A DNA stretch of 64,000 bases from the human T2T-CHM13v2.0 reference genome, Homo sapiens: the NCBI RefSeq assembly GCF_009914755.1, contig NC_060928.1, one strand, 5' to 3'. Each line of letters opens with the position of its first letter. Within the stretch, counting starts at the first letter, position 1. The position numbers and the translations under genes are program-made. The notes below the pieces were generated by a model. The model saw only the letters and a list, made by a program, of their open reading frames with translations. It was not told the origin of the DNA and made no database searches. Below are positions 14,200 to 54,994 of this stretch, in pieces.

Positions 14200-15150
14200 C
14201 AGCTTTGCACAATGAAATGGTGAACGTTTAACAAAAGTATATTGGATGGGCATGTGTCTACATGCTGAAAAGAAAAGCTGTTATGGACCATAACTTTTAT
14301 ACAAACTGATCAGCTGCCATCTGTGTACAAAGCACTGTGATCAGCAGAGACCTGTTTGTGCCACTGTGTAGACTGATAGCAGCAGATTAATTTAGCTGAG
14401 CTGTTCTCTAGCAGTTTGGTCACGAGGACATAGACACTACCAAAGTGTAGTCATCACACCACTGATCTTTGCTGGTTTAGATTGTGGCAAGAGAGAAAAA
14501 CTGCTTGCTCTCTTCACCCCAATACAGCTGAGGTAAGAGCCACCTTTTTTTTCTCTTGAAGGGAAAAATGACAGCAAAAGCAGCCTCTTTTACCTTTTCC
14601 CATGCTGTTTTGATTTAAATTTATTCTAGTATTTTCCATGGTAATCCCTCAGGCCAGGTATACAGTTCAGCATCTCTTTGGCGGAGAGCAACTAGTTTGT
14701 AGTACAGCTTGGGTAAATTTTAATAACAAAATTGTATTGCCAGCACAAAGCATTTGACCTTGAAGACTCAGAGGAGAGCAGACATTGCAGATTTCCCTAC
14801 TTGCCCTCGACTTACAAGAGAGTAGATAATGAATTAATAGAAATTGATAAAGAGTGTCTGTCAGGCAGCCGCTGAGGTCATGAGGCTGGTATGCGAAAAG
14901 AGTGCCCATACAACATGCGAAACACATAGCTGCAGCCAGGAGAGGTGGGTGGGTCATTGAAGCAGGAAATTAGCCGTCAGATGGAATGTTGGCCTCTGTA
15001 CAAGCTACGCCGCGCGCGTGGACTCACTGGGAGAAAACACGGGGAAATGGGGAGTGCTCAGTGCTGCAGAGAAAAGAGCTCCTATAGAAGGTGACAGCAC
15101 TGTTGGTGTTAGTGGTTCTTCAAAGATACTGAAGACAGTGCAGGTTAGAA
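14200..15150 (+). promoter_or_regulatory. Putative internal promoter/enhancer and 5'UTR upstream of the MGSAQCC exon
   Basis: Repeat-free, higher-complexity block with several CAGCTG E-boxes and CGCGCGCG at 15011-15018 in an otherwise CpG-poor window. Confidence 0.45.
15047..15090 (+). CDS. RAPGEF2: Candidate alternative first coding exon, MGSAQCCREKSSYR(S)
   Basis: Strong Kozak gaaATGG at 15047. 14 codons plus AG, then donor AAG|gtgaca (phase 2). This matches the single leading T of the exon at 25585 (AG+T=Ser, then FGKR...). It lies in a repeat-free block with retained CpGs. Confidence 0.6.
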
Positions 15151-17789
15151 TTTTTTTTAAAGGAATTAAAATGTTAGTAGCTTAAGTATCGAATGTTTAG
15201 TGCTTGTTAAATAGACAACAAACTACTGAGGAATGAACGGGGGAATAGCACAGCTATAAGGCCTTCGTATTGTATAATAATTTTTATCTTGTACTCTATT
15301 TTTATAAGCAGAGATGAAATGTTGAGATTCACTGTGCAGAGGAGCAAACTTCTGTTAATTTTATGTGGGGTGATGATTGTTAGAATGTTTGTAAGTGAGC
15401 CTTGAAGGAAATTTAGAGATATATAGTGTGTATTCAGTTTTCCCAATACTTCTGAAATAGAAGCCGGTTAAAGTCCATGCTTTAGAAGCAGTTCGCAATT
15501 TACACACACACATGTAAATTATATATGTACTTGGTGTATGTGTGTGTGTGATTTTTAACATAGCTGTTACTTTTTTGCTTCTTAAACTAATGAGTCAACT
15601 TATTAAGAAAAGATTACATGTATTTTATGGAAAGTCAATCCACTTTCCTTTTATACTTATATTAAAATTTATTCTTATATATGTTACTAATTTTTGAGAA
15701 TGGAATTGATGGCATCAGCAGTTACTTGTTAGCTTTTCCTCCCTAATTTAATTGCCACTCTGCTGTCTGAAGACAATGTTATGTGATTGTTTTTTTGTAA
15801 GTCCTAAACAAATCAATTGGTTTTGATTTAGGAACATCAGTCCAGTCAGTTACTTAGATTTTTTTAAGGAAGAAAATAAAATGTAGTAACTGCCTATCAT
15901 TTTCTGGAAACAGGGGTGTGAAAAAATTGATGTATTGGAGTATTATGTTTTTAATCATTTTGTAAATTAGGATTGCCCACCAGTATATCTGCTTGACTCC
16001 TGTGTATTCCCTTGCTGGGTGTAGGCTGACTTGAATAAGTTTACATTCCGATACTGAGAATTGCATTCCACTGGGTAGTTCTGACGTACAAGAAGAATGT
16101 GGAGGCCCATACAAAGGGCAAGATTAGGGACACTGATAGAAGAGGCTTCTATGCTCTGTGACTGCCTTTCGTGGAAAGCTCACACTGGCAGAAAGTGCTC
16201 TTGACCCAACTTGGGAGAGGAGAATGTGGTCACAGAAACTTCGGACAATTTGGCCTTACAACACCTGCAGCACCCTGTCTGGTGTTTCATTGCCTATGGG
16301 TATTTACGAAAACTAGGTAAGACTTCACATTCCCAAACTTTCATGCGGTGTGGGAGTCTTGAAGGAAAGTTTTGTTTTCTCTATATTATATGGAAGACTA
16401 CTTAGTAATTGTTTGTCTTCATATTTTTGGTATTACAGAGTCATACCATTTGCACCTGTAGAAATATTTAACTTAGTTTCAATTTTGCTAACAATTTTAA
16501 TTCTTAATTTTTAAATTGTTTTGTATAAAAACTTCAGCAAAAAATTTAATGAGAATGAAAGTCTGAATTGTTATACTGTTTTTAGAGCAGTTGTTCCTTA
16601 GTCATACTGAGGGAGTACTAGCATTTAGGAGTAATCTGTTTCATATGCTGCAAGTGGTCTTTTCAATAATCATTTACTGGTGGGCTTAATTTTTTTTCTT
16701 TTTTGATATGGCAGAGAACTCAAAGATTGACCAGAAGTGAACCTGCATCACTTCTAGTTGTCATCTTGTGGTTGTTTAATATCAGATTTTAAGGACATGC
16801 TGAAATTACATTGAGATTGAATTGTTGAAAGGCAAGGTGTACAGCGTATTTATACAGAACAATTTAGAAGGGTTTAAATTAGACCATAGTGATCACATTT
16901 TCATTCTGTGTAGAAGGAGAAGACTATCAGCATTCTTAAAACACATATACCATACTTCTCCCTTCCACCACCACCTTTTCCTACTTTATGGCCTCTAACT
17001 AGACACCTCTTATCAAACGCTGGTGTCTGTTTAGAAAGAACTAACAGGTTTTTAAAATATTCAGGCTAACTCTCATTGATAACTGTTAACCTACATCTTT
17101 CTTGTTTCTGAAAGACAGCTATTCATATGTGTGTGTTAATATGTATATGTTAATAGCATGTCTTATATACAAATACACATATACACACAAAGACTGAAAC
17201 TACTAGAAGACCAGAAGTAACTTTTGAAAGATATATAATTCAAAGTAGAAAAGGTAAGCTATATATCTTTAAAAATTAAGGAGTCTGAATTTTAAAATAC
17301 TTGTTTATCTTGGTAAGTGGTATTATGAGTGCCATTTCAAAGAAGCAGATGTCCTACTAGTTGAAGTTCTGGCAGTAGCTCCCTGAAGAGATTTGGTCTT
17401 TATAGGTTTGACATTCAGATCTTTGCGGGGGTAACCCTAAAGCTCTTTATGGTCATTTGTAATTTTGCTGAATTTGAATTGCCTTCTGAATTAGAAATGC
17501 TGATTTGTGTTTTTCACTCAACTAGCTAGTGAGTGAGCCTGGTCATTGAGAATTCACCTCTCAATGAAACTCACTTCTCAACTTGTCATTGGGTTATAGC
17601 TGTTTGTGTACTTGTCATCCATGGAATATAAACTACTTAAGAAGAGGGACTATATTTAGTGAGTTTTTCTGTAAACGCTGTATTGATTACTGAGTTTATA
17701 TTGGTAATATTGATTCTGTTATGTGTTCAGTGAACATTTGGAAGAGGAATAAATAGCACAATAATATATATGTCAGAAATAATATTATG

Positions 17790-18132
17790 TAGTCATGCAC
17801 TGTGTAATAATGTTTTAATCAGTAATGGACCACATATACAGTGGTCATCCCAGAAGATTATAATGTGGTATTTTTACTGTAACTTTTCTATGTTTAGATG
17901 TTTAGATACACATATACCATTGTGTTATAATTGCCTACAATATTCAGTACGGTAACATTCTTTATGGGTTTGTAGCCTAGGAGCAATAGGCTGTATCATC
18001 TAGCCTAGGTTTATAGTAGGCTATACCATCTTGGTTTGTGTAAGTATATTCTGTGATGGTCACACAACAGTAAAATCGCCAAACAACATATTTCCCAGAA
18101 CATATCTCCATTCTTAAGCAATGCATGACTGT
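17790..18132. mobile_element. Tigger3a/MER7A-type (Golem) non-autonomous DNA transposon
   Basis: Inverted ends tagtcatgc...gcatgactg, with internal gcctaggagcaataggct motif. Confidence 0.8.
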
Positions 18133-18409
18133 ATGTTAATATATATTATTACTCACACATATTATTTTGTTATGTGTTATATGTTATGTATATAATATGT
18201 TCTCACAAATACATTATATGTCAAATTTAAACAAAAGTTTCTCACATGAATCATATATCCGTGTGAGAAATAATATATGTTTTGTAGAGAGAGAAAAAAG
18301 AAAGAACCTCAAATATATGACCATGGATAAAGAAAAAATGAGATTAATGTTAGGGGAAAGAAAAATGTTCATATAATTGACTCTTCTAAACTTTGATTTA
18401 AAATAAATA

Positions 18410-18639
18410 TTAAGTTGTATCCTTAATCCAAAAATTTCAAATACAGAATGCTCCAAAACTTGAAATTTTTTGAGCACTGACATGGTGCTCAAAGGAAATG
18501 CTCATTGGAGCATTTTGGATTTCATATTTCCAGAGTAGGGATGCTCCACATATATGTGCAAATATTCCCAAATCCAAAATAATCCAAAATCAAAGCACTT
18601 CTGATGCTAAGCATTTTGGATAATGGATACTCGACCTGT
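18410..18639. mobile_element. Tigger4a/MER46A-type (Zombi) MITE
   Basis: Internal aaatgctcattggagcattttggattt palindrome and terminal ggatactcgacctg. Confidence 0.8.
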
Positions 18640-18884
18640 CTTTCAGTCATATTTGTTTACCTTCTGCCCATCTCTAACTAGGTCTTTCACCCAATGTCTA
18701 TCACTTCATTGTTAAGTTATCATATAAAAGAGATGGGTTCCCAGTTTGTCTGTCATTAAACATAACTCTTCCTTGGTTCCTAAGATTTGCTGTTTGTTAA
18801 AATAGAGATTCTACTTTTTCTTATTCAAGTCCCAGATTTTTGCCAGTAAACCCAAATATCCTGTCTATAGTTTCTTTTCTAAGC

Positions 18885-20900
18885 TTTTTTTAATTGTAGT
18901 AAAAATTATGTAAAATATGTCATTTTAACTAGTTTTAAATGTATGGTTACATTTAAGTGTGTGTTACAGTGGCATTAATTACATTCACACTGTTGTGCCA
19001 CTAGTGGCGCTACCTCTTTCTAAAGCTTTTCTGTAACTCCAGATGGAAACCCCGAAACCATTACGCTTTCCAAATTGCTTTCTCCAACTCTTGGCAACCT
19101 TGAATCGACTTTCTGTCTCTATGAATTTGCCTATTCTAGATATTTCATGTAAGTGGAATCATATGATATTTGTACTTTTGTGGCTGGTTTGTTGTCTTTA
19201 GTGGATGTTTTCAAGGTTCATCCATGTTGTAGCAGGTATCAGAACTTCATTCCTTTATATGGCTGAATAATATTCCTTTGTGTGTGTATGCCACAGCTTG
19301 TTTATCCATTCTTCCGTTGTTGGACACTTGGGTTGTTTCCATATTTTGGCTACTGTGAATAATGTTGCAGTGAACATTGGTGTACAAATATCTGTTTGAG
19401 TCCCTGCTCTCAGTTCTTTTTGGTATTTATCTAGGGCTAGAATTGCTGTGTCATATGTTAATTCTATGTTTAGATTTTTGAGAAATTGCCAAACTGTCTT
19501 CCACAGTGGCTGTATCATTTTACATGCCCACCAGCAATGCACAGGGTTCCAAGTCCTCCACATTATTTTTTTTCTTTCTTTTTGCTTTCTTGAAAAAGGG
19601 AAATAATAAAAAATTGTAGCCATCCTGGTATCTCATTTGCATGTGGCTTCAGGTGTGAAATGGTATCTTATTGTGGTTTTGATTTGCTTTTCTCTAATGA
19701 CTCAAGATGCTGAGAATCTTTTCATGTGCATATTGGCTCTTTGTGTATCTTCTCTGGAGAAATGCCTATGTAAATCCTTTGTCAAGTTTACATTGGGTTA
19801 TCTTTTTGTTGTTTAAGACTTTTTTATATATTTTGAATATTGAATCTTTATCAGATATGTGATTTACAAATACTTTCTCTTATTCTGCAGGTTGCCTTTT
19901 CAGTTAATTGATAAGGCCCTTCGATGCAGAGTTTTTAATTTTGATGAAATTTAGTTTATCTATGTTTATTCTCCTGCTCCTCATGCTTTTATTTTCCAGA
20001 GCTAAAAATCTATTGCCAACTCCAAGGTCATGAGGATTTATTCCTGTGCTTTTACTAATAGTTTACTTTTGGCTCTTACATTTAGCTTGTTGATTCATTT
20101 TGAGTTAATTTTTGTGTATCTTGTGCGGTAGGGGTCCAATTTCATTCTTTTTCATGTGAAATCCAGTAATCCCACCACCATTTGTTGAAGACTCTGTTCT
20201 TCTCTCATTGAACAGATATGGCATACTTGTCAAAAATCAACTGGTCAATCATTTGCAGCAACCTGGATGAGACTGGAGACTATTATTTTAAGTGAAGTAT
20301 CTCAGGAATGGAAAACCAAACATCGTATGTTCTCACTCATAAGTGGGAGCTAATCTGTGAGGATACAGAGGCATAATAATGACACAATGGACTTTGGGGA
20401 CTCGGGGGAAGTGTGAGAAGGGGGTGAGGGATAAAAGACTACAAATTGTGTGCAGCGTATACTGCTTGGATGATGGGGGCACCAAAATCTCACAAATCAC
20501 TAAAGAACTTATGTAACCAAGTGCCACCTATTCCCCAATAACCTATGGAAATAAAAAATTTAAAAATATATATATAAGGAAAAAAAGTCCTTTTAATTTA
20601 ACACACACAAAAAATCAATTGACCATTGATGTATGAGTTTATTCCTGGACTCCCAATTCTATCCTTTTGGCCTGAGTACCACACTATTTTGATTACTGTA
20701 GCTTTGTAGTAAGTTTTGAAATTGGGAAGCTGAGTCCTCATTGTTCTTTTTCAAGATTGTCTTGGCAAATTAGGGCCCCCTGAATTTCCATATGAATTTT
20801 AGGACCAGCTTTTTCATTTCTGTAAAAAAGACTGGTCTAATTTTGATAGAGGGTATGTTGAATCTGTAGATCACCTTATGTAGTTTATTATAAGACTTAC
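18885..20900 (-). mobile_element. L1MA/MB antisense fragment interrupted by a sense L1 3' end
   Basis: ORF2 C-terminal remnant (QPLWKTVWQFLKNLNIEL...WKQPKCP) and LVLKFIWK. The host resumes at about 20612 after the insert. Confidence 0.85.
20248..20590 (+). mobile_element. L1 (L1MA1-3/L1PB-like) 3' end nested in the older L1
   Basis: gcagcaacctggatgagactggag...aataacctatggaaataaaaaa plus A-rich tail. Confidence 0.85.
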
Positions 20901-21177
20901 TAAAAAAAAAAACTGCTGTATTTGATAGTGTTGAGTCCATTTCTGACAGTGGCACCAAGGAACAGGATGTAATCACATTTGGATCAGAATGCAGTCACAT
21001 GGTTTAGAACAATCCTTACCTACTTCTGATTTTTTGATGAAGGATCATAGGTGTACATTTAAGTTACCCAAGTTCTTCCTTAATTGTATTATTTCTAAGT
21101 TTTTTAAAAATGATTATTTTAGAAACTTAAGGGATACTGGCTTTCAGCTGGTGTAATAGGACTTAATGAAATATTAT

Positions 21178-21840
21178 TATTTTTTGAGACGGAATCTTGC
21201 TCTGTCACCCAGGCTGGAGTGTAGTGGAACGATCTCGTCTCACCGCAACCTCTGCCTTCCGGGTTCAGGTGATTATTCTGCCTCAGCCTCTCGAGTAGCT
21301 GGGACCTCAGGCACATGCCACCATGCCCGGCTAATTTTTTTTTTTTTTTTTTTTGAGACAGAGTCTCGCTCTGTTGCCCAGGCTGGAATGCAGTGGTGTG
21401 ATCTCGGCTCACTGCAAGCTCCACCTCCCAGGTTCATGCCGTTTATTGGCCAGTCTGGTCTCAAACTCCTGACCTCAGGTGATCTGCCTGCCTCTGCCTC
21501 CCAAAGTGGGGGGATTATAGGCATGAGCCACTGCTCCCAGCCTATTATTATTATTTTTGAGACTGAGTCTTGCTCTGTTACCCAGGCTGGAGTGCAGTGG
21601 TGCAATCTCGACTCACTGTGACCTCCGTCTCCTGAGTTCAAGCGATTCTCCTACCTCAGCCTCCTGAGTAGTTAGGATTACAGGTGCCTGCCATCATGCC
21701 TGGCTAACTTTTGTATTTTTAGTAGAGACAGGCTTTCACCATGTTGGCTAGGCTGGTCTCGAACTCCTAACCTCAAGTGTTCTGCCCACCTCGGCCTTCC
21801 AAAGTGCTGGAATTACAGACATGAGCCACCGTGCCCAGCC
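21178..21840 (-). mobile_element. Alu cluster: chimeric AluS/partial AluY (21178-21542) and AluS (about 21550-21840)
   Basis: Three right-arm starts but only two left-arm ends. Confidence 0.9.
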
Positions 21841-23699
21841 TATGAAAAATTATCTTAATTTATACATCTGATCTTTTGGAAAGCCCTTTGGATTCCCTGA
21901 ATTTTTTGTGAGAAACTTTTCAGTTCTGTGTTTTTCCCCTTAGAAACTCTTCCAGGGTAATACCCTTTTATAGATTTGATTTTCTATAAGGGCATGCATT
22001 GTAATTATTGTTTTTGATTCTTTCCTTGTGTGTCCATCATTTCAAAGTTTGTCTTTGTTTATAATTTTACTTGTTGTGTAAGCATCTTGCTGTGCTAATG
22101 CATTCAAAGACTTCGTTTTTATTAATAACTTTTAACTGAAAGCTGAGAACCTGTTGTTGAGTATAATGTTAAATGCTCTGTGCATTTGATCACTTTTTCA
22201 GTGTAGAGCATTTCATTGTGCACACTGGATCCTCTACGGCTTGCCTGCACTCACACTCTTTATAAAATGTCTTGTACTTTGTTCTTACTGTTCTGGTTTT
22301 CTGTTTCACTCTCTCAAAGTGTATTTGTTATTTGCAATCCTGAAGATTTTGCACCATTTTTTTCCACTAAGTAATCTAAAATATTTAAAAGGATTGTTCT
22401 TTATATTGTCTGTGAGGTACTTTATCTCCTATACATCTTTATCTGTTGCCTTTAAGTCTGTCCTTATTTTCCAGAGCTGAATTTTTTCAGTTTATTTGTG
22501 TAGAACTTCGCCAAAGATTTTTGAAAATGTAGTAAATAATCATATTTACTTGCTTTTGTTTATGTATTTACTGTTTCAAAGAATCAGAGAGCAGAAGCAA
22601 AAGTAACTTGTGGACTTAATTTCTAGCTAACATTTTTTTTTCCATTGCTTTGTCTGTTTCTTCCAACCTTATAGCTTCTGGTTTGTGAGCTAAGAGCACA
22701 TCATCTCTGTGAGAGAGCTCAGAGGCTTTGTCACTGATCAGGCCTAGCGTGTGCACTCATGACCTACTCTTTGGCTCCTTTGAGGCTGCTCTTCCTTTCT
22801 GCATTCCTGGCTGTGTTTGAAAAAATAGATTGTTGAGTAAATGAAGTAACATATTCTCCCTTGCTAATGTGTGTTCTGTGCACATTGCTTTTTCCATTCA
22901 GCTTATTCAATAAATATATCTGATGGAGAGTCTGCAGTTTCTCCTGTTCACATCTTTGTGACGGTTTATGGAACTCGAGTCTTTTTATGGTTGAAAAAGT
23001 TTCATCAGGCTGTAGTGCAACTGACTCTCTGAAAAACACTTATGGAAATGTTTTTGTGTAGCACATTTTAGGAAATGTAAACTTTTCATCCCCAAAGTAA
23101 TAGTGTGCTAGTGCAACTTGAAGTGTGACTTCCTAGCCATGAAGTTCTGTTGAACGAATGACTAATTGGTAAGAGGATTTACGCCTTAAATCCTGGAGTG
23201 GTGAAGATGGTACTAGATTTATATATAAAATAAATAACAGTTATATAGTTTATTTATGTGAACATTAACACCTTTTGCTGCTAAAATTTGTAAACAATTC
23301 TAGCATATGTTTTTGTATCAAGTATTATATGAACAGTGTATACATTACAAACATTTATGATTTTTTACTATGTTACATTTAAAAACGCATAAACATTAGA
23401 CCACTATATTTATAAACTTGTCCAGCCTGTAACCTGCCACATATTTTACTAACACATTGAGATTATTTATTTGCAGTGTATAATTATAAGCTTCATTTTA
23501 AAAAATTAAATTGCAAATAGGTAGATTCAGAAACTCAAACTTTTGTGTATATTGAAGAGTTATGGAATTTCAGTTGTATTTAACTGTAAGCTAAAAGAAA
23601 TGTGTAAAAATTCAGGTCATTTAAATTGCATGAGAAGTAACATGAAGATAGATTTATTATGTTGTTCCTGGCAAATGTTTTCACTTAAAAGTACTCTAA

Positions 23700-24100
<401 letters not shown>

Positions 24101-25584: not shown

Positions 25585-25660
25585 TTTTGGCAAGCGTTCT
25601 GCAGGAAGTTTTAGGCGTGGCTGTGAATGCATTGTTTTAGAGCCTTCTGAAATGATTGTG
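25585..25660 (+). CDS. RAPGEF2: RAPGEF2 long-isoform internal exon (76 nt), FGKRSAGSFRRGCECIVLEPSEMIV, end of N-terminal cNMP-binding-like region
   Basis: Polypyrimidine tract plus ctag acceptor (AG 25583-84) and donor GTG|gtaaga. The peptide resembles the RAPGEF2/RAPGEF6 'GCxCxVLEPSEMIV' motif as recalled. It ends in phase 0, matching the next exon. Confidence 0.92.
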
Positions 25661-27073: not shown

Positions 27074-27413
<340 letters not shown>

Positions 27414-27981: not shown

Positions 27982-28149
27982 GTGGACTATATGGATGAAA
28001 ATGAAGAATATTTTCAGCGGCAAGCTTCCCATAGACAGTCTCGAAGGAGATTTAGAAAAATCAACCAGAAAGGTGAAAGACAAACAATTATTGACACTGT
28101 GGATCCTTATCCCATGGGCAAACCTCCTTTGCCTAGAGGCTATCACACG
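27982..28149 (+). CDS. RAPGEF2: RAPGEF2 long-isoform internal exon (168 nt), VDYMDENEEYFQRQASHRQSRRRFRKINQKGERQTIIDTVDPYPMGKPPLPRGYHT
   Basis: Acceptor tttcag| and donor ACG|gtaagt. 56 open codons, phase 0-0. Lies within supplied ORF 27841-28332. Confidence 0.93.
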
Positions 28150-30555: not shown

Positions 30556-30573
30556 GAATGCACTAAATCTCAG
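30556..30573 (+). CDS. RAPGEF2: 18-nt in-frame microexon, ECTKSQ
   Basis: Pyrimidine-rich tract, then caaag|GAATGCACTAAATCTCAG|gtattg. Phase 0-0, compatible with flanking exons. Confidence 0.75.
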
Positions 30574-39545: not shown

Positions 39546-41212
<1,667 letters not shown>

Positions 41213-41259: not shown

Positions 41260-41365
41260 TAATAGAGTTCTGCAAATAAACAGAACCAGTGGAGCGTTAA
41301 GGGAAGGAGATATTCAGGAATTGGCGTATGCTATTGTGGATGCTGACAAGTCCAAAATCTGTACC
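41260..41365. mobile_element. MLT2-like LTR fragment
   Basis: aaacagaacca...aggaattggc...gctgacaagtccaaaatctg. Confidence 0.45.
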
Positions 41366-41378
41366 TAATACAGCATGA

Positions 41379-41683
<305 letters not shown>

Positions 41684-41695
41684 TGAGACTTTAAA

Positions 41696-42030
41696 TAGTC
41701 CTGTGGTGCATAATGACATTTTTGTCAGTGAACGACCACATACACAACAGTGGTCCTGTAAGATGAAGTACAGTATTTTTACTGTAGCTTTTCCGTGTTT
41801 AGGTATGTTTACATATACAAATACTATTGTATTACAGTTGTCTGCAGGATTCAGTACAGTGACATGCTGTACAGATTTGTCACCTAGGAGCAATAGGCTA
41901 TCCCAAAGAGCCTAGCTAGGTGTGTAGTAGGCAACATTATCTAGGTTTGTGCAAGTACACTCCCATGATGTTTGTACAAAGACAAAGTTGCCCAATGACG
42001 CCGTTCTCGGAATGTATTCCCCGTCATTCT
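41696..42030. mobile_element. Tigger3a/MER7A-type element (second copy)
   Basis: Same motifs as 17790-18132 (gaccacatacac...cctaggagcaataggcta). Confidence 0.78.
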
Positions 42031-45769: not shown

Positions 45770-45960
45770 TGATACACCAGTCTGCTAGATGTTTACTGAT
45801 GTGTTTTGTCAATGAAACTAGCCCACAGTTCAGTATTTCCCCGTCAGTAGATAAGCATGCACTGGCCAAAGAGGTTAAGTAACATGTTCAATATTCATGG
45901 TCACTCAGGTAGTAAATGTTAGAAAGCCAAACATAGGTCTTTCCCATTCCCAATCTATGA
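45770..45960. mobile_element. MIR fragment
   Basis: Core-like agaggttaagtaacatgttcaa. Confidence 0.55.
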
Positions 45961-46756
45961 AATTACTCATTTTTAAAAATGAATTTAACATGTATTGCTT
46001 TTTATGTTATTTAAACTTAAAATGTGGCCCAAAGGAGATATATATCAAATAATTTAACCGCTTTAGAAGTATACCATTTAAGTGCCTTTTGAAGAAAGAG
46101 ACTGGGGCATAGAATGTCCAATGTCCAATATCCAGAAATGATGACTGAGCTATATTTGCAGCAGTTATGGACTTTGGTTGATGAATCAATCTTTTCGTTA
46201 GAAGTTAAGTGTTTTTCCTTTTCTGACCATGTATTTCTCATTAATAAAGCACAGCTATCTTTTTTTCTTTTTAACCTTTCTAGCTTCATTCCAATAGGAT
46301 AAGTTTTTACTAGTAAGTAGCACCATTTCATAACAAAGGGATGACCGTGTAACTAGTGTATTTTAAAAGTTAGGCCCACTAATATTATAATAAGGAAAGC
46401 CAAAATCTTGCAGAAAGATCTTTTGTAGGTATGACTGTTTAATGAACTGAAATCACTTACTTACAGTTGTCTAAAATTATTCATAGTTTTTAGAGGTGAA
46501 AAAAATACCACTCATAAAATTTCATCTTGTGTACCAGAAAATGTTGGAAGTGTTTTGGTAATATTTAAGAATATTGAAAAATATAAGTAAATCAAAGAGT
46601 TTTAAAAATACTTCTATAAAACTATCTAGTTATATATAATCTGAATAATTCAGATTATTGTTTAAAATCATCTTTAATCCATTTCTAAGTTTGGCAACTT
46701 TTAATTTTTAAGGATGTTAAGAAGAAAACTTCTATTGTCCTATTATCACTGTAGTT

Positions 46757-47058
46757 TGTTTTTATTATTATTTATTTATTTATTTTACTTTTTTGAGACA
46801 GGGTCTCACTCAGTTGCCCAGGCTAGAGTGCAGTGGTGCAGTCACGGGTCAATGCAGCCTTGACCTCCCAGGCTCAAGTGATTCACCTCACAAGTAGCTG
46901 GTATTACAGGTGTGCACCACAACGACTGGCTAATTTTTTATAGAGACGAGGTTTTGCCATGTTGCCCACACTAGTCTTGAACTCCTAAGCTCAAGCAATT
47001 CGCCTGCTTCAGCCTCCCAGAGTGCTGGGATTACATGTGTGAGCCACTGCACCCAGCC
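46757..47058 (-). mobile_element. AluJ with (TTTA)-like tail
   Basis: Alu consensus with internal deletions. Confidence 0.88.
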
Positions 47059-47529
47059 TAATTTTTTTTTTTTTTTAAAGTAAGGGACATTTTAATATTC
47101 TCCCTCGCACTGCCAAAACAGAAAGACAAAAATCTTGGAATGAAGGAGTTATTACGAGGAAATCTTATCCCCAAACAGTTTTGTTTCCGTTAATGTAGTG
47201 TTTTTTTTCCTATGATTCTATATTATATCAGCCTTTCTACTCGCATTTTCCCGCCAGCTGATGTTTGGTAACTGCCATGTTAGATAAGACCACCTTAAGA
47301 GTGTGAAAGGATTTAAGAATCTTCTGGCTGAACTACTTAATGCAGTTTAGTTCTTTTCTATAACCACTAACATTCAGCCTCTACTTTTAAGATTTTTAAA
47401 TTACAATTAGCACAGGTATTTGACACTCATCCTTTACAGAATGAGTGTCAAATTTGTATCCCAGTGCCTGGTACAAAGTAAGAACTTAGTAAATCCTAAC
47501 AGTTATTATTTATTAGAGGAAAAGGTTAA

Positions 47530-48140
<611 letters not shown>

Positions 48141-51100
48141 GAAAAAGGTTAATTATTAAGAAATTCTTGAACTTAGTAAATCCTAACAGTTATTATTTAT
48201 TATAGGAAAGGGCTAATTATTAGGAAACTATTATGGTTAGCTGTAATCTGCCTCTCCATAATTTTAGTTCATGTTTCTAGGTCTCTTAAAGCAACACAAG
48301 TGAATATTAATATTCCATTTTTATATAACTGTGTTTGAGATGTTTACAAAGATCCACCCTTTAATCCTCTTCTTCTGTATTAAATATTACCAGCTTTTTG
48401 TAGCTTTCCTAAACCAGTTACTGCTTGCTGTTGTTTGCATAGGTCCTGTAATACCCTACAGTGCAGATTACAGTAGAATTTTCTGTCTTCTTTGCTCTGG
48501 ACATCATAGGTCTGATCATGTAACCTGAGATTATATTAAGATTTTGGGGATTGTACATTGGCTCAGAGAGAGCTTTTGGCTTGCTCTGTTTTATAGATAA
48601 CCCCTTCTACCTCCCACTCACCTATGAATTGTTCCTTAAGCCTGATTCTCCCCATCCTGTTCTTGTACAAGTGACATTTTGATAATATTCATGTAGGTCT
48701 TTATATTTATTCCTGTAAAATTTAAATTTACTGGTTTTAGCCTACTCTTTTTGCCTATCAAATTATTTAAAACTCTGGATTTTGTCAGTAAAGAAATTAG
48801 GCATCTTTTATAATTACTCACCCATCCTGTGTCTGGTTCCCCATCTTAAACAGTGTGGAATTTAACAGGTTAGTTTTGAAGTTTATGTGGAATCACTTAT
48901 GCATTCATTCTTTGAACAACCACTATGTGTCAAGTACTAGGGATAAAGCACAGTCTGTTGTTGACAATATCAGATAAGTTTTGTGTGGTTCCCCTCATCT
49001 AACTTATAATTCCAGTTTGTGATGCAGTATTTCCTGTTTTTCTTAAATAAAAACAGAGGGATAATTAACAGATCATTGTGCTCATGCAACATATTAATCC
49101 CAAGGGAATATATTACAGTCAAATTAGTAATAAAGATAATATTCTTTTACATATGCCGTGTTAATGTGTGAAATATTAGTGGGGGGGCCTTGTTCTACAG
49201 CCTCGCCCCTAGAAAAAGCATGGAAATAATTCACAACCACTGTTCAAGGACTCCACCTCTGAAACCTTGAGCAGAGGTTTGTAAGTGAAGTCTGGCCTTT
49301 TTAAAAGATAGATTCTAGGGAATGAAGTAAGCTTTGTTAAATCTGCTGCTAAAGTCTGCCCGTTTTTCAAGTAAGTGCATTTTTAAAAGCCCCACATGGG
49401 AATTTCTCATGGACTTACAGGCTTCTTTGTTTTTCTGCATGTCTCCATCTCATGTCATCTTTTAATCTTTCCCTTCTAACATGCTCCATGTGAATGTTTC
49501 TTATAGATAGTTGCCACATAATTTTCGTATATTTCTTATAGATAGTTGCCACATAATTTTTCAATTACAAATCAGATGCCACATAAACAGTTTGCCGTCA
49601 GAAACTTTTTTTTTTTAACATTTCCTTGGAACGTATCTGTGGAGTAAATCATGGTGATCTTTTTGAACTCCCAGTTAGGTTTTTCTGATACTGAACATGA
49701 ACTCAACAGATTCTTTGTGTTTCTAAAGACTGTATTTAGATTCACTTAGATGTTTAGTTAGCATTTCCTATGTGTCAGCCATTGCATTGGTTTCTTTCAC
49801 ATTTTATTTCATAATTAAATTATTCTTAATAATGAACCAGAAGTGCCATTTCACTTTATGAAAGTAGAAAAATGAAATTTTAGCCCAGATTTCCTCTGTG
49901 ACTGCTTTGGGTGGGGTGTGTCAAGGACTTGTGTGAGGTATACCCAAAGATGAAATAGATGACGTGAAAATGTAAGATTGAGTTAAAATATAAAGTTTAT
50001 CAGATAATCAACTTTTCTTTTAAAAGAAAATGCACTATTAATGGGGGATGTATTGGCTTTAGGAAAAGAGAAGTAAAACTTCTGACCATATCTACCATCT
50101 TTTATTTTGCATTGGCTTAGTGCTTAATTAGTTTGATGTACTCATATAGAAAATAGCATTTTAAAATGACATTTTTGGGGGGAACAGTGAAACACTAAAA
50201 ATCCAGTTTGTAAAATTTGTTGTTTTCTCGTATCAAAGAATGACTTCTTTCTGCTATACCCACAAGTTTTCCCCAGCCTCTATGGTTTTTCCTCTGTGGT
50301 AGTGGGGAGAGGGAATATTTAACTATTAAGTGAAGTAAGTGGTATTAAGAAACTTAGAATTCTATTTTGCATTCTTCTATACTACTAACTCTATAATCTT
50401 ATACACTTTATTTTTCTATTAAAGATAAGTACATTATTCTCTTGATTCCCTTGCGTTTTGATGAAGTTTAATTAAATGTTTGTAAAGCACATTGAGATCT
50501 ATGGTTAAACACTGTATATGTTCTAAGTGTGATTAATCATTACTGAGAACAGACCATTTTTCTCAATTTCATAGTAATTAGAAAGTGAATACTTTAGGTG
50601 GAAAAAAAAAGAATATAATGATATTAAATATAGCCTGGAAAGCCTTTGCATTAAGTAGTTTCCTGAACTATATAATCTCCATTTTTTTGGAGTGTTGTTA
50701 CTGATAATTTGGAAGTCATTGGATGTTATTGACAGGGTAGAAAGTTCTTACATGGTTCTTTTTCTTAACAAGATCTAGTTAATGCTACTTGGTAATGGTT
50801 AAGGAATGGGGTAAATATAACCCAAATTAGAGTGAACTTCAAGGTAAGTGTGATTTTTTCTTATTTGTATAAAATCTATAATATGGGTTTCTCCTAAATC
50901 CTTTGTTTATATTTCTTTAGCAGTGTTTGGCGTATTATAACCTGCCATAATTGTGTTTCAACATACAAGATAGTGTGGATAACGAAATTTCTGTATTACA
51001 ATTATGAGTTTTAAGATGTGTAGGTTGTAGGCATGGAGCCAGGCTGAGAGAGAGATCATGCCAAGTCTTAGCACAGAAAAGCATCAGTGCCTAAGGATGT

Positions 51101-51344
51101 GTGATTTTACTTCATCTATAAGGTTTCCCGGTTAGGTTAGTTTCCTTCTTGAGATAAGTCACACATTTTCCAGAGAGAGGCAAGCAATTGGTAACCTACA
51201 TATATAAAGTCAGATACCATCAGCATGGGGGTAATTTGACTTAACCTTGAGAGGAGTGTTTTGGCACATGGATATGTGTTTTGTGGGACACGGGCTAGAT
51301 GGAAGGTGTAGAACTTGATTGTTTAATCCCTGAGTTGCCATTTA

Positions 51345-51815
51345 CTTTTTTTAAATTGTGATAAAATATAAGTAACATTAAAATTTACAATTTTACACAT
51401 TATTAAGTGTAAAAGGCCAGTGGGATTAAATACATTCCCATTGTTTTTGCAACCATTACCGCCATCCATCTCCAGAACTTTTTTGATCTTCCCAAGTTAA
51501 AACTCTGTGCCATCAAACAATAACTCCCCAATCCCTCCTTCCCCCAGCACCTGTCACCCTCCATTCTACTTTGTGCCTACGTGAATTTGACTATTTGACT
51601 ACTCTGGTATCTAGAGTAGAGCATTATATATTATTTGTCCTTTTGTGACTGTCTTATTTCTAGCTTGATGTTTTCAAGTTTTATCCATGGTGTAGCATGT
51701 AATAGAAATTCATTCCTTTTTAAGGCTGAATAATGCATATACCACACTTGTATGAATATCATTCATACATTTTTATCTGTCGATGAACACTTGGGTTGCT
51801 TCTACCGTTTGGCAA
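51345..51815 (-). mobile_element. L1MA/MB 3' end fragment
   Basis: ttttttaaattgtgataaaatata...catccatctccagaacttttt...cacttgggttgcttc. Confidence 0.82.
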
Positions 51816-51934
51816 CAGTTTACTTTTAAGTCGTTAGTTATATCTATTACAGAAAAATATTTGGACTTTTGACAGAAACTAGTCTAGAGGATTAAATGGG
51901 GTCTTTCTAGTGCCCTTTCCCAGTCAGTGGAAGG

Positions 51935-52900
51935 TTCACTCACTCAACAAGAACGTGAGTGCCTACAGTGCTTGGTGCGGTGAACACAGGAGTACACACA
52001 GACAGATATGGCACCAGCCATCATGGAGGTGAGAGTGTAGTGGAGGAAGCAGACAGTAACTGCTTAAATACTCTTGGGACTACATGCAAAATTACAACGG
52101 TAGTAAATGAGTGCTTCAGTGAAGGGATAAACACTAACATGAGATTTCTGAGGGTATTTCACCAGTTTGTTTTTGGGAGTGGAGGTGGCATCAGTCAGGA
52201 AAGGAAGGAAGAAGGAAAGTTTCAGGCAGAGGAAATAACATGTGCAAAGGCCCTTTTGTCTATGAAGGAGGCAAGAGCAGCCCCTGCAACTTGGGAGTGC
52301 AGAGAGTGACCATGAGCATGGTGTAAGTCTGGAAAATGTATAAATCTTGCAGATCATGATAAGAGTTTTGGTCTTTATGCCAGGAGCAGTGGGAAGCCAT
52401 GGAAGTGTTTTGTTTTCATTTGTAAAAGGAGCTTAGTGGATGAGGGCAAAATGATCAGGCTTTAGTTTTTATAAGATATCAGGAGGTGGTATGGTAAATA
52501 GGTTGGGTGGATGGAGTTAGAATCCAGACAGTTCCTTAAGGAGACTTTTGCAGTTCTCAAGGCAAAAAATAATGATTGGAGTGGGATGATAACAGCAAAG
52601 ACAAAGAGAAATCTAAATTTGAGAAAAATTAGAGAATGTAATAAACAGATGTTGTGATGGATTGATCATGGACAGAGATGTTAAGGAAACTCTTAGATGT
52701 AGAAATGGCATAACAGGATCACTATGGTTCATCATGTAAGTATTCCATGGGATGAGGAATGGTGAAAACCAAAACAGATTGTTGAGAGATTTGGTTGGGA
52801 AGTGGAGGAAGAGGAAAATACCTGGTCTGGAGAATGATTCTGTTTTTGTTTTGTTTTTGAGATAGGAGAGACCTGCACATTTAAAAGCTGGTGGGGAGGA
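51935..52900. mobile_element. L2 fragments
   Basis: ttcactcactcaacaa...gagtgcctac, catgtgcaaaggccc, agtgggaagccatggaag. Confidence 0.6.
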
Positions 52901-53799
52901 CTCCGGTTGTGGGGCAGAGGTTAAGCATATGTGGCAAAAGAAGGATAATGGGTAATGTAAGAAAAGGGGTTGGGGGGATGGGGAGAAGGATCCAAAAGAG
53001 TGATGTGGTGGGAATGGTTGCCTTTAGATATGAGGAGAAAGAAGGAAAGAGAATAGGGTGGGTACAGTCTTTGGCAGTAGTCAAGAAACACAAGTCAGCA
53101 AGCACTGACAGTTCCAAAGTCAATTATTAAAAATGCTACATTTTCTGTGTCTATTTTCTATTACATGTGCCATTGATAGATAAACCTGATTGTGAAAAGC
53201 TGACAGTGTTTCAGAATTAAAATGTCCTTATTCTTTGTCAAGTATAATGCAGTCTTTCAAATACCTACATATGTACATGAAATTAAGAGTTTATAATAGA
53301 ATAATGTATCCGCATTTTATTTCAACTCTCTACCTCTGAAGTTTGGTTTGGTTTTTTTAAAAAAAAACCTGGGTAGGTTAATTTTTTATATTATTTGCAA
53401 GGCAATATGTGCATCTGTGTGTGTGTATGTGTGTGTATGGGTGTTTGTGAAAATCACATCATCTAAATGTATACAAAGCTTGTCAAGTATGCATTTTATA
53501 AATTTTTGATAGATACTTGTTTACTATAGCACAGCAATATTTGAGGATGGGATAGAGGTCACATTGATTCCTTTATCTTCACCTTGGTGAAAAAAATCAT
53601 ATTTTAGTTCAAAGCTGTTCAAGTAAGTCCTTGCTCCGTTTTCCCACCCTGTCTTCAGTGATATTATTTGGAGTCAGCAATCAATGGATTCCATCCCTCT
53701 GAGACTTGCTTAACCTACAGCTGCTGATAGAATACAGGCAAGAGCTTGTTACTTTATCTGAATTGTCCATTGCTACCTTAATGAGTGAAATGGTTAAGT

Positions 53800-54934
53800 A
53801 GAGGAGGGGGCGAGTCTTAAGGAATGTGTGTACCATTTGAGCTGAATATTTCAGTGTGTATAGGGAGAGGGAGGGTGAGAGAGAAATCCACTTACATCAC
53901 TAGAACTGCATTGAGTGTGAGCCTTGCAGGTTAAGAGACAGACTACAGTGTCTTGCTTTCTGCAGGAAGCAGCAATGCCGTTTGTTTCCTAAGAGGAATT
54001 TTTTATTTAGAAAAGGAAGCTTTCTATCCAGGAAATGGCTTTCCTTGTGCGTTGCTATGCCAACTGCCTGCAGCCATGGTCCTCCAAAGTAAGCACAATA
54101 ATGTAATTATATTGGTGTATTGCATTCAGACTCATGATTTTTGAGATTGTGTGTGTGCATGTGCTGTGTTTCTGTTAGTGGCTCTCTTGCTAGCAGGCAT
54201 GCTTGTGTTGAGTGTGAGGGACAGACATCATTAAATTAAATGTCCATCAGTGTCATGCTGCCAAGATTAATTGTGCAAACTTGGTTAGTGGAGTGGGACA
54301 GAGATCACTGGTCACCACTCTGTCAGCATCATTAGCAGCTAGGGAGGAGTTCCCGATTCACACGCTCTGCCCTGATTTTTTTCTTTCTTTCATTTTCTTT
54401 TTTTCTCTTGGTTGGAGGGTTCTGTATGTGTGATTGCAGATGAAACAAGGGTATTAACAATGCTTGGCTGAATGCTAGAGCCTGGTTCTTATACCACCCT
54501 GACTAATATAATTCTGTGTTAAGCCTTTTTGAGGGGAGTCTGTGTGCAGTCAGCCATTTTAGCTTTTTTCTTTTTTTTTTTTTTTTCCTCTCCTTTTCTT
54601 TTGCCTCTTGTTCTTCAATCTCAGAAATGATCTTGTTCTCTTGGAAGACTGAGAGCTGTGTGAGGTTTTCTCAGTCTTGTCATAGCCTAGGATGGTTAGA
54701 GTTTCAATGTTATAAAAATGGAGACGAACACTGTTGTTCGGATTCCTTTTCTGGTCTACAAGTGTGAAGGGTTTTTAAGCTTACCAGTAGTGACACTTTA
54801 AGCTGCAGCTTGGTTTTCCCTCCTCCCTTTTTTTTTTTCCTTTTTCTTTTAATTTAATGCTGTAGAGGGTGACTTGCCATCGTGAGAGATTGGTACATGA
54901 TGTGTAAATTCAGTTCAGCATATGTTTCTTCATT
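53800..54934 (+). promoter_or_regulatory. Internal promoter/5'UTR region for the short RAPGEF2 isoforms (non-CpG-island)
   Basis: Repeat-free block surrounding two ATG-bearing first exons, with ETS-like GGAAG motifs. The TSS cannot be placed from sequence alone. Confidence 0.55.
54035..54088 (+). CDS. RAPGEF2: Alternative first coding exon, MAFLVRCYANCLQPWSSK
   Basis: Strong Kozak gaaATGG at 54035 and exactly 18 codons to donor AAA|gtaagc (phase 0, same as the MKPL exon). I recall a similar N-terminus in Rapgef2 isoforms (unverified). Confidence 0.72.
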
Positions 54935-54994
54935 ATGAAACCACTAGCAATCCCAGCTAACCATGGAGTTATGGGCCAGCAGGAGAAACACTCA
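54935..54994 (+). CDS. RAPGEF2: First coding exon of canonical short RAPGEF2 isoform, MKPLAIPANHGVMGQQEKHS
   Basis: The translation matches the recalled N-terminus of human RAPGEF2/PDZ-GEF1. 20 codons, then donor TCA|gtaagt (phase 0). Confidence 0.95.

What the first reader, a model, noticed from the sequence alone, without database searches (positions are those of the whole stretch)
15047..54994. Promoter-selected menu of four N-termini: candidate localisation switch for a Rap GEF
Seen: four frame-compatible entries into one protein. These are the upstream long isoform entering at 25585, MGSAQCC (15047), Cys-containing hydrophobic MAFLVRCYANCLQPWSSK (54035) and Cys-free MKPLAIP (54935). The last two, exon 28149 and the microexon all end in phase 0 and can share the next exon. 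Inferred: promoter choice toggles between acylated and non-acylated forms, and between keeping or losing the N-terminal domain. This resembles alternative palmitoylated N-termini in PSD-95/SAP97 alpha versus beta. This is the best candidate for an under-described system in the window.
Basis: inference. Interest (0 to 1): 0.75.

Follow-up and report, generated by a model that had tools for sequence, protein, structure and literature searches.

The report
RAPGEF2 alternative N-termini; one ancient leader
This stretch of the human RAPGEF2 gene holds its known alternative first exons, and one short, unannotated 18-residue start (MAFLVRCYANCLQPWSSK) turns out to be a real, almost invariant vertebrate leader shared with the sister gene RAPGEF6, while the proposed MGSAQCC start looks like chance.

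Summary
All three short reading frames are in the sequence with the stated phases. They differ greatly in standing.

- **Already known:** the long isoform (25585) and MKPLAIP (54935) are annotated. Alternative first exons named MAS, MIVV, MKP, MLP and MAF were described in mouse in 2017 (PMC5611689).
- **MAF exon (54035-54088) is real and ancient.** It is absent from the human RefSeq table. RAPGEF6 has a copy in the same intron position, 17 of 18 residues identical, with 7 of 8 base differences synonymous. Of 212 vertebrate PDZ-GEF gene models fetched, 52 start with it. Residues 1-14 are invariant from teleosts to primates. That is the longest invariant run in the protein.
- **MGSAQCC (15047) has no support.**
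  - The genome holds no second copy, and the protein database holds no match.
  - An in-frame ATG lies 66 bases upstream.
  - Such frame-compatible entries occur at about the chance rate (13 seen, 9.8 expected).
- **Acylation and localisation are untested.** The library searches found no paper on RAPGEF2/PDZ-GEF acylation (28, 41: listings only) and none holding the MAF or MGS peptide strings.

Promoter-selected N-termini are supported. The four-way acylation switch is not.

The parts
54035..54088 (+). Coding part of the MAF first exon: MAFLVRCYANCLQPWSSK, phase 0, donor AAA|GTAAGC. Not in the RefSeq table given for this window.
   Evidence: sequence, phase. (RAPGEF6 copy, 17/18 aa, 7 synonymous and 1 non-synonymous difference). 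(only 2 places in the genome). (52 of 212 vertebrate gene models start with it).
54007..54034 (+). Short 5' flank of the MAF start that still aligns with RAPGEF6, including the shared context AGGAAATGG. Probably 5' UTR or start context.
   Evidence: the blastn alignment begins at 54007. (further upstream only 22/60 identical, ungapped). (the AG in front is a weak acceptor: pyrimidine fraction 0.44).
54588..54994 (+). Annotated first exon of the classical isoform. Coding part 54935-54994 gives MKPLAIPANHGVMGQQEKHS, phase 0, no Cys.
   Evidence: Hub annotation.. (the paper cites this N-terminus for KIAA0313). (17 of 212 models, tetrapod RAPGEF2 only). (no RAPGEF6 counterpart).
25585..25660 (+). 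Annotated coding exon entered by the long (MAS...) isoform. Starts with the last base of a codon. Contains the in-frame ATG 25652 (MIVV start), preceded by an out-of-frame 7-codon uORF at 25627.
   Evidence: (RAPGEF6 homologue at C5:132081983-132081915). (3 of 212 models start MIVV, 84 start MASYVD).
27982..28149 (+). Annotated coding exon, 56 codons, ends in phase 0.
   Evidence: (RAPGEF6 homologue at C5:132068117-132068007, 62% identity).
30556..30573 (+). Annotated 18-nt microexon ECTKSQ, phase 0 to phase 0.
   Evidence: (present or absent among models...HTECTK[SPQ]Q|LPAD versus ...GYHT|LPAD). (no collinear RAPGEF6 counterpart).
14464..14532 (+). Annotated non-coding alternative first exon with no ATG. 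Transcripts from it would first meet the ATGs in exon 25585.
   Evidence: Hub annotation..
16164..16316 (+). Annotated alternative first exon. It carries a 30-codon uORF (16224-16316) whose stop is the last codon of the exon.
   Evidence: Hub annotation..
15047..15090 (+). The frame-compatible ORF and donor are real in the sequence but unsupported as an exon. The in-frame upstream ATG at 14981 uses the same donor.
   Evidence: (no second genomic copy at E<=10). (no RAPGEF6 parallel). (no protein in the database at E<=10).

Best explanation
The window covers the 5' half of human RAPGEF2 (PDZ-GEF1), where alternative first exons feed different N-termini into one common exon (LPADFTK..., window coordinate 91104).

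Shown:
- Four real entries exist here:
  - the long MAS isoform through 25585, 27982 and optionally 30556;
  - the MIVV start (ATG 25652), reached from the non-coding first exons 14464 and 16164;
  - the MKP exon (54935);
  - the MAF exon (54035).
- The MAF exon is missing from the human RefSeq table, but it is a genuine coding first exon. It predates the RAPGEF2/RAPGEF6 split and has been kept almost unchanged in both genes from teleosts to primates.
- MGSAQCC is most likely a chance ORF in a promoter-rich stretch.

Inferred mechanism:
- In mouse the MAF and MKP transcripts are brain-only. Start-site choice in that neuronal promoter region decides whether the protein begins with the invariant Cys-bearing 18-residue leader or with the variable Cys-free MKP leader.
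- My leading guess, at odds of about 0.35, is that the MAF leader is a short N-terminal helix acting as a targeting module. Cys7 and Cys11 would be S-acylated, holding the GEF at membranes where Rap1 and Rap2 sit.
- A non-acylated protein-docking role is about equally likely.

The confidence given is for the anatomy and the verdicts on MAF and MGS, not for acylation.
For: Anatomy:
- Frames, phases and splice sites.

Literature (PMC5611689; I read the abstract, the significance statement, all of section 18, and passages of sections 11, 12, 14, 19, 20, 24):
- Mouse transcripts X1-3-MAS and X4-MIVV occur in all tissues tested.
- Protein is detected only where the latter group is expressed.
- In human a 'single identified first exon' of that group is reported.

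MAF conservation within the human genome:
- The peptide has exactly two places in the genome, self and C5:132052088-132052035. The same holds at DNA level.
- That copy lies between the RAPGEF6 homologues of exon 27982 and of the LPAD exon, so the order is collinear.
- 46/54 nt are identical. Differences by codon position are 1, 0, 7; binomial P(>=7 of 8 synonymous) = 2e-4.
- Third-position divergence is 0.39, against 0.57 in the LPAD exon. This argues for an old split, not recent gene conversion.
- In 104 kb of RAPGEF2 against 110 kb of RAPGEF6, only 5 single-copy DNA matches exist. Four are collinear: exon 25585, MAF, LPAD and the next exon. MAF has the highest identity.

MAF conservation across species:
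- 52 of 212 fetched gene models start with the leader. Residues 1-14 and K18 are invariant in 52/52.
- Carriers include RAPGEF2 of a primate, a whale and frogs and salamanders, and RAPGEF6 of rodents, mole, pika, quail, tortoise, frogs and about 17 teleosts.
- It is the longest invariant run of the protein: 14 columns, the next longest 10.

MGS:
-, as set out under the observation check.
Against: - No human transcript evidence was available here. The human MAF exon could be silent.
- That the paper's 'Rapgef2-MAF' is this same leader rests on three letters plus the gene models of other mammals. The primer table (Extended Data Fig. 1-2) was closed.
- The invariance figure is partly by selection. 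Rows were found by similarity to the leader. However, one search shows a clean gap (51 to 40 bits) with no half-diverged leaders.
- For acylation there is no direct evidence:
  - The helical hydrophobic moment of the leader is not unusual; 11-16% of shuffles reach it.
  - The AlphaFold2 model puts residues 2-11 in a helix, but at pLDDT about 37 in a poor model (mean 46).
  - Invariance of non-Cys residues (Y8, A9, N10, Q13, P14) goes beyond what a lipid anchor needs.
- MGS cannot be excluded as a rare primate-specific start. It has a strong start context (G at -3 and +4) and sits between two annotated first exons.
Confidence: 0.72

Rival explanations
1. Four promoter-selected N-termini form an acylation menu: MGSAQCC is myristoylated and palmitoylated, MAF is palmitoylated, and MKP and the long form are not acylated. 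Promoter choice thereby sets membrane localisation.
For: The sequences and phases exist. MGSAQCC reads as fitting the recalled PROSITE-type N-myristoylation pattern, with two Cys next to it. It has G at -3 and +4 and lies between two annotated first exons. MAF has two invariant Cys.
Against: MGS has no copy in RAPGEF6 or elsewhere. None of the 212 PDZ-GEF models starts MG. No database protein matches its 54-aa frame at E<=10. The in-frame ATG at 14981 would bury the Gly unless transcription starts within 65 nt. A stronger phase-2 entry lies about 150 nt upstream (14880-14944). No acylation data exist for any form.
Confidence: 0.05
2. The MAF leader is a protein-binding or autoregulatory helix and is not lipidated. 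It would dock on a conserved partner or on the GEF's own regulatory or catalytic core. The Cys residues would be structural contacts.
For: 14 consecutive invariant residues in two paralogues over the whole span of bony vertebrates. This exceeds any stretch of the catalytic domain and is typical of a specific protein interface. The amphipathic moment is not significant.
Against: No partner is known. AlphaFold2 gave the leader pLDDT about 37, with no confident packing, in a poor model. Short palmitoylated N-termini of synaptic proteins can also be highly conserved between paralogues (recalled, not tested).
Confidence: 0.3
3. The leaders matter mainly for whether protein is made or kept (translation control, stability), not for where it goes. 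The upstream-exon transcripts are poorly translated or give unstable protein. MAF and MKP transcripts give stable protein.
For: PMC5611689 reports protein only in tissues expressing the MAF/MKP/MLP group. It proposes degradation tagging or translational block for the other group. Here, first exon 16164-16316 carries a 30-codon uORF, and the MIVV ATG is preceded by an out-of-frame ATG whose stop ends 2 nt before it.
Against: This does not explain why the MAF peptide itself is invariant at the amino-acid level while its synonymous sites drift. It can hold together with a targeting role.
Confidence: 0.2
4. The human RAPGEF2 MAF exon is an intact but no longer used relic. The isoform exists in other species and in RAPGEF6 only.
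For: It is absent from the 7 RefSeq transcripts in the hub table. The 2017 paper found a single human first exon of this group.
Against: ATG, frame, donor and all 18 residues are intact and identical to the leader in a monkey and a whale gene model. Human RefSeq here lists only 7 transcripts, while other species list up to 33 predicted isoforms.
Confidence: 0.1
5. The MAF exon is also, or instead, a 57-nt internal cassette (E-MAFLV...K) spliced between the phase-0 upstream exons and the LPAD exon.
For: Both paralogues have an AG directly before GAA-ATG, and 57 nt keeps phase 0. One frog model (P0124) carries the leader about 65 residues from its start.
Against: 52 of 53 models with the leader have it at residue 1. 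The acceptors are weak: pyrimidine fraction 0.44 in RAPGEF2, and 0.69 with a competing AG at -7 in RAPGEF6. RAPGEF6 has an in-frame TAG just before GAA.
Confidence: 0.05

Closest known systems
Mouse Rapgef2 'exon 1 / exon 1-prime' transcript families (Jiang et al. 2017, eNeuro, PMC5611689)
   Same: The same gene and the same layout. Several upstream exons give MAS, MIVV, MKP, MLP and MAF starts, all joined to the exon beginning LPAD. MKP, MLP and MAF are brain-only.
   Different: The paper reports a single such first exon in human (MKP) and gives no role to the peptide sequences. Here the human MAF exon is shown to be intact, paralogue-shared and near-invariant. No human counterpart of MLP with a usable donor was found. 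MGS is not among their starts.
Alpha versus beta N-terminal isoforms of PSD-95 and SAP97 (recalled from the literature, not checked here)
   Same: Alternative first exons give either a short Cys-bearing N-terminus or a longer domain-bearing one. The short leader is shared between paralogues, and the setting is neuronal.
   Different: Palmitoylation is demonstrated there and untested here. The Cys residues sit at positions 7 and 11 rather than near residue 3-5. A third, Cys-free short leader (MKP) also exists.
N-terminal amphipathic, Cys-palmitoylated helices of small RGS proteins (RGS4/RGS16 type; recalled)
   Same: A short N-terminal segment with two spaced Cys and basic residues, ahead of a regulator of a membrane-bound GTPase.
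   Different: The amphipathic character of the MAF leader is not statistically distinct, and there are no acylation data.
Dual-acylated MG...C N-termini of Src-family kinases and G-alpha subunits (recalled)
   Same: MGSAQCC reads like such a motif.
   Different: Nothing shows that this ATG is ever the start of a protein.

Membership tests
Coding alternative first exon of a PDZ-GEF gene (MAF exon, 54035-54088) | ATG in a good context, open frame, GT donor, and a phase that fits the common exon | tested here: met
   G at -3 and +4; 18 codons; AAA|GTAAGC; phase 0. The LPAD exon starts on a whole codon.
Coding alternative first exon of a PDZ-GEF gene (MAF exon, 54035-54088) | Purifying selection on the peptide | tested here: met
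   7 synonymous against 1 non-synonymous difference to the RAPGEF6 copy, P = 2e-4. Residues 1-14 are invariant in 52/52 models.
Coding alternative first exon of a PDZ-GEF gene (MAF exon, 54035-54088) | Sits at the N-terminus of gene products | tested here: met
   52 of 53 leader-bearing models have it at residue 1. These are mostly automatic predictions.
Coding alternative first exon of a PDZ-GEF gene (MAF exon, 54035-54088) | Transcribed and spliced to the common exon in human | not testable with these tools
   Mouse RT-PCR is reported for 'Rapgef2-MAF'. No human transcript data were available, and the exon is not in the RefSeq table.
Coding alternative first exon (MGSAQCC candidate, 15047-15090) | ATG, open frame, donor and fitting phase | tested here: met
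   44 nt, phase 2, AAG|GTGACA. However, 13 such entries occur against 9.8 expected by chance.
Coding alternative first exon (MGSAQCC candidate, 15047-15090) | Conservation or presence in any gene model | tested here: not met
   No second genomic match at E<=10. No RAPGEF6 parallel. None of 212 models starts MG. No database protein at E<=10 (weak evidence by the tool's own caveat).
N-myristoylated protein | Gly at position 2 of the translated product, in a permissive context | tested here: inconclusive
   MGSAQC fits the recalled pattern by eye. The in-frame ATG at 14981 would make the Gly internal unless transcription starts in 14982-15046.
S-palmitoylated N-terminal leader (PSD-95-alpha-like) | Cys close to the N-terminus in a hydrophobic/basic setting | tested here: met
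   C7 and C11 are flanked by F3 L4 V5 Y8 L12 with R6 and K18. Both Cys are invariant.
S-palmitoylated N-terminal leader (PSD-95-alpha-like) | Demonstrated thioester-linked acyl group and Cys-dependent membrane binding | not testable with these tools
   No paper seen among those retrieved; 29 papers, 15 listed; 20 papers, 12 listed. Both were judged by listing only; 0 papers.
Amphipathic membrane-binding helix | Helical hydrophobic moment clearly above composition-matched shuffles | tested here: not met
   muH is 0.41 (residues 2-13) and 0.34 (residues 1-18); 16% and 11% of shuffles reach these values. The AF2 helix at residues 2-11 has pLDDT of only about 37.

The most novel reading that the evidence does not exclude
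The 14-15 invariant residues MAFLVRCYANCLQP(W) are an ancient targeting module that predates the duplication and is shared by both vertebrate PDZ-GEFs. The module is made only from an internal neuronal promoter. It is S-acylated on C7 and C11 and places the Rap GEF on specific (for example synaptic) membranes. Choice between the MAF and MKP start sites, 0.5-0.9 kb apart, would then switch RAPGEF2 between an anchored and a soluble form. The human isoform has been overlooked because RefSeq does not annotate it.
Probability: 0.3. Interest if true: 0.65.

Novelty: new member of a known kind. Interest (0 to 1): 0.5.

Why it matters
RAPGEF2 and RAPGEF6 activate Rap1 and Rap2. RAPGEF2 is studied in cAMP-to-ERK signalling in neurons (PMC5611689); links to cortical development and psychiatric or epilepsy genetics I recall but did not check here.

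If the brain-specific MAF leader is a functional module, then constructs built on the MKP or long forms lack the most conserved 14 residues of the protein. Those are the forms used in the paper read here. The human annotation also omits an isoform that could carry disease variants.

The claim is directly testable with a reporter fused to 18 residues. The MGSAQCC part of the finding should not be followed up without transcript evidence.

Tried and rejected
- **Apparent conserved intronic block.** Window 41700-41960 seemed collinear with C5:132058483-132058298. It is an interspersed repeat with 1792 first-look candidates genome-wide, so I rejected it.
- **My repeat filter** dropped the MAF exon itself, probably because several frames of the same DNA counted as multiple hits. 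Searches show the exon. One search's filter returned nothing (too strict).
- **Pfam on single exons:** 0 families for 4 exon translations. They are too short, so the N-terminal domain of the long isoform was not verified here.
- **Human counterpart of the mouse MLP start:** the only MLP-starting phase-0 ORF in 30574-91103 has a donor score of 0.68 and reads like a repeat.
- **MKP and microexon counterparts in RAPGEF6:** the best local matches have E = 1.1 and E = 0.022 (the latter not collinear). The genome-wide search for MKP found only itself.
- **CpG islands:** none at either start cluster. The highest value is 0.65 observed/expected at 15000-15499 with GC 0.39.
- **Hydrophobic moment:** not significant.
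- **AlphaFold2 of a 1190-aa leader-bearing RAPGEF6-like model with 37 rows:** mean pLDDT 46, pTM 0.35. The model is too poor to say whether the leader packs on anything.
- **Odd leaders P0001 and P0003** are readings of exon 27982-28149 in another frame, so they are artefacts.
  - The 18-aa query was below the 40-aa minimum.
  - The 14-aa query was below the 15-aa minimum.

Full report
**What the window is.** By the hub's table the window is chr4:162564001-162628000 of T2T-CHM13, inside RAPGEF2. I read the five places named in the finding and computed frames, phases, start contexts and splice sites.

**The observation**

All three short frames are there.
- MGSAQCCREKSSYR runs from 15047 to a GT at 15091 (AAG|GTGACA). 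That is 44 nt, so two bases of a codon are left over. Exon 25585-25660 begins with the third base of a codon, so the join stays open through 27982-28149 and the microexon 30556-30573.
- MAFLVRCYANCLQPWSSK (54035-54088, AAA|GTAAGC) ends in phase 0.
- MKPLAIPANHGVMGQQEKHS (54935-54994, TCA|GTAAGT) ends in phase 0.
- Exon 28149 and the microexon also end in phase 0.
- The common next exon lies outside the window at coordinate 91104. It starts on a whole codon, LPADFTK....

- the annotated non-coding first exons 14464-14532 (no ATG) and 16164-16316;
- the in-frame ATG at 25652 (MIVV...);
- an in-frame ATG at 14981, 66 nt upstream of the MGS start.

**Is ORF + donor + phase more than chance? No.**
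- I used a rough donor matrix. Its frequencies are recalled and serve only for ranking. Annotated donors in the window score 4.5-10.3 on it.
- On that matrix, 13 phase-2 ATG..GT entries lie upstream of 25585 with a donor at least as good as the MGS one. Sequences simulated from the same dinucleotide make-up give 9.8 +/- 4.0.
- With a strong start context, 1 is seen against 1.06 expected.
- An MG start with Cys in residues 3-7 is seen once against 0.095 expected. It occurs in 8% of simulations.
- One of the 13 (14880-14944) lies about 150 nt upstream of MGS and has a much better donor.
- In 40 kb upstream of the homologous RAPGEF6 exon there are 20 such entries. Three of them end at what reads as the genuine upstream coding exon. 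None of the 5 MG starts has a Cys in residues 3-7.
- For phase 0, 8 entries in 30574-64000 match or beat the MAF donor.

Anatomy alone therefore does not separate real from chance entries.

**What is already in print**

Jiang et al. 2017 (PMC5611689) is the key paper. I read the abstract, the significance statement, all of section 18, and passages of sections 11, 12, 14, 19, 20 and 24. It describes two families of Rapgef2 transcripts in mouse.
- X1-3-MAS and X4-MIVV occur in all tissues tested.
- All of them join the exon that begins LPAD.
- Protein is detected only where the second family is expressed.
- For human it reports a single identified first exon of that family.
- It proposes that the other leaders block translation or tag the protein for degradation.

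That 'MAF' is the leader found here is therefore an inference from three letters plus the gene models below.

A promoter-selected menu of N-termini is thus known. What is not in that paper is any role for the peptide sequences, the human MAF exon, or MGS.

**The MAF exon is real and ancient**

- The 18-residue peptide has two places in the genome: itself and C5:132052088-132052035 on the minus strand. The second has 17 of 18 residues identical, the donor AAA|GTAAGT and the same start context AGGAAATGG.
- That place lies between the RAPGEF6 homologues of exon 27982-28149 (C5:132068117-132068007) and of the LPAD exon (C5:132041437). It is therefore in the same intron and in the same order.
- 46 of 54 bases are identical. 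The 8 differences fall 1, 0 and 7 on codon positions 1, 2 and 3. Seven are synonymous and one changes S16 to A.
- With 35 of 153 possible substitutions synonymous, P(>=7 of 8) is 2e-4.
- Third positions differ at 0.39, against 0.57 in the LPAD exon. The likeness is therefore old constraint, not recent conversion.
- Flanks are unrelated, apart from about 28 nt before the ATG.
- The 121-nt DNA has only these two places in the genome.
- I compared 104 kb of RAPGEF2 with 110 kb of RAPGEF6. Of 2538 HSPs, only 5 were single-copy. Four of those are collinear: exon 25585 (75%), MAF (81%), LPAD (78%) and the following exon (66%) (an earlier version is).

**Across species**

The large protein database turned out to hold vertebrate gene models.
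- With the LPAD exon as query, 1085 proteins matched and 120 were listed.
- With residues 1-40 of a returned monkey RAPGEF2 model (P0052), 235 matched and 120 were listed. The score steps sharply from 51 to 40 bits.
- Of the 212 proteins fetched in all, 52 begin with the leader. One frog model carries it about 65 residues in.
- Residues 1-14 and K18 are identical in 52 of 52. Position 15 is W in 45 and R in 7 (salamanders). Position 16 is S, A or V, and position 17 is S, H or P.
- RAPGEF2 carriers: a snub-nosed monkey, narwhal, two Xenopus, two further frogs (Rana, Hyperolius) and two salamanders.
- RAPGEF6 carriers: six rodent species, mole, pika, quail, a tortoise, three frogs and about 17 teleosts.
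- Xenopus tropicalis has the leader in both genes.
- I aligned 37 of the 52, leaving out near-duplicate isoforms. In that alignment the leader is the longest invariant run in the protein (14 columns, next 10). It is also the most invariant 15-residue window of 1176.
- This figure is partly by selection of rows, but one search shows no half-diverged leaders.

By contrast, the MKP leader starts 17 of the 212. These are tetrapod RAPGEF2 only, the sequence is variable, and it has no Cys. It has no RAPGEF6 counterpart.

**MGSAQCC**
- No second genomic match at E<=10.
- No similarity of 13500-17000 to 50 kb of RAPGEF6 upstream; best E is 0.04.
- None of the 212 models starts MG.
- The 54-residue open frame around it matches no protein of 96-2000 residues at E<=10. 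By the tool's own caveat this is weak evidence.
- The upstream in-frame ATG means Gly-2 would be exposed only if transcription began within 14982-15046.
- It sits between two annotated first exons and has a good start context, so I keep about 10% that it is ever used.

**How it most likely works**
- Shown: several 5' ends feed one protein, and the MAF leader is under extreme peptide-level constraint in two paralogues.
- From the paper: MAF and MKP transcripts are brain-only in mouse, and they correlate with detectable protein.
- Inferred: the MAF ATG and the annotated start of the MKP exon are about 550 nt apart, with a RefSeq enhancer element (54418-54467) between them. The choice between them may therefore be start-site choice within one neuronal promoter region. 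Neither cluster is a CpG island.
- For the leader's job I commit, at about 0.35, to an N-terminal targeting helix whose Cys7 and Cys11 are S-acylated.
  - In favour: two invariant Cys in a hydrophobic/basic N-terminus, membrane-bound substrates, and the paper's membrane-associated, dendrite-enriched staining.
  - Against: there are no acylation data. The hydrophobic moment is ordinary. The AlphaFold2 helix at residues 2-11 has pLDDT of about 37 in a poor model. The invariance of non-Cys residues points as much to a specific protein interface (rival, about 0.3).
- The translation/stability reading of the paper can hold alongside either. Here the 16164 exon has a 30-codon uORF, and the MIVV ATG follows an out-of-frame ATG.

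**Literature on acylation**
- 'Rapgef2' with 'palmitoyl' gave 29 papers, of which 15 were listed. None concerns its acylation, judging by title or abstract.
- 'PDZ-GEF' with 'palmitoylat' gave 20 papers, of which 12 were listed. In the one I opened, the words occur only in the reference list.
- no paper in the library holds the MAF or MGS peptide strings. The only hit in those two searches is the eNeuro paper, which holds the MKP word.
- searches for RAPGEF6 or RAPGEF2 first exons gave only that paper as relevant.

**Comparison and verdict**

The system is the known Rapgef2 alternative-first-exon arrangement. It even fits in paralogue sharing. The defining feature, demonstrated palmitoylation, could not be tested.

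New here:
- the human MAF exon is intact although not in RefSeq;
- the same exon sits in RAPGEF6;
- its first 14 residues are the most conserved stretch of both proteins.

I could not check whether GENCODE or human RAPGEF6 RefSeq models already list it. The four-way acylation menu is not supported.

Interest 0.5: much of the finding is known or is chance. The invariant leader is a sharp, cheaply testable lead.

Noticed in passing
G000 C5:132052088-132052035 (minus strand; locus L002 1501-1554): Human RAPGEF6 carries an intact copy of the MAF first exon (MAFLVRCYANCLQPWASK, donor AAA|GTAAGT). It lies 15.9 kb downstream of the homologue of exon 27982 and 10.6 kb upstream of its LPAD exon. The peptide is identical to the start of predicted RAPGEF6 isoforms in rodents, mole and pika.
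   Followed up: yes
window 16224-16316: The annotated alternative first exon 16164-16316 holds a 30-codon upstream ORF (MWSQKL...GIYEN) whose stop codon is the last three bases of the exon.
   Followed up: partly
window 25627-25660: In exon 25585 an out-of-frame ATG (25627, MHCFRAF-stop) precedes the in-frame MIVV ATG (25652). Its stop ends 2 nt before that ATG. This could hamper translation of the MIVV form, which fits the paper's report of transcripts without detectable protein.
   Followed up: partly
window 14880-14944 and 14981-15090: Two more phase-2, frame-compatible entries sit next to the MGS candidate. MRLVCEKSAHTTCETHSCSQE has a strong donor (GAG|GTGGGT). MECWPLYKLRRARGLTGRKHGE runs into MGSAQCC in the same frame.
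   Followed up: partly
window 41720-41960: This stretch looked like a collinear conserved block shared with the RAPGEF6 intron. It is an interspersed repeat (about 78-82% identical copies on many chromosomes; 1792 first-look candidates). It is not in the hub's list of longest masked stretches.
   Followed up: yes
window 53975-53992: A 5-codon upstream ORF (MPFVS-stop) lies in frame 60 nt before the MAF ATG. It matters only if transcription starts upstream of 53975.
   Followed up: no
outside the window: coordinates 92934-93412 (locus L009) versus C5:132089133-132088670: A single-copy-looking 65% match over 490 nt between the two genes that is not collinear. It lies after the LPAD exon in RAPGEF2 but upstream of the exon-25585 homologue in RAPGEF6. 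It is probably an old repeat.
   Followed up: no
proteins P0001 (mouse, 119 aa) and P0003 (tortoise, 194 aa): Database entries with odd leaders before LPAD are translations of exon 27982-28149 in another frame. They are likely artefacts of partial cDNAs or gene models.
   Followed up: yes
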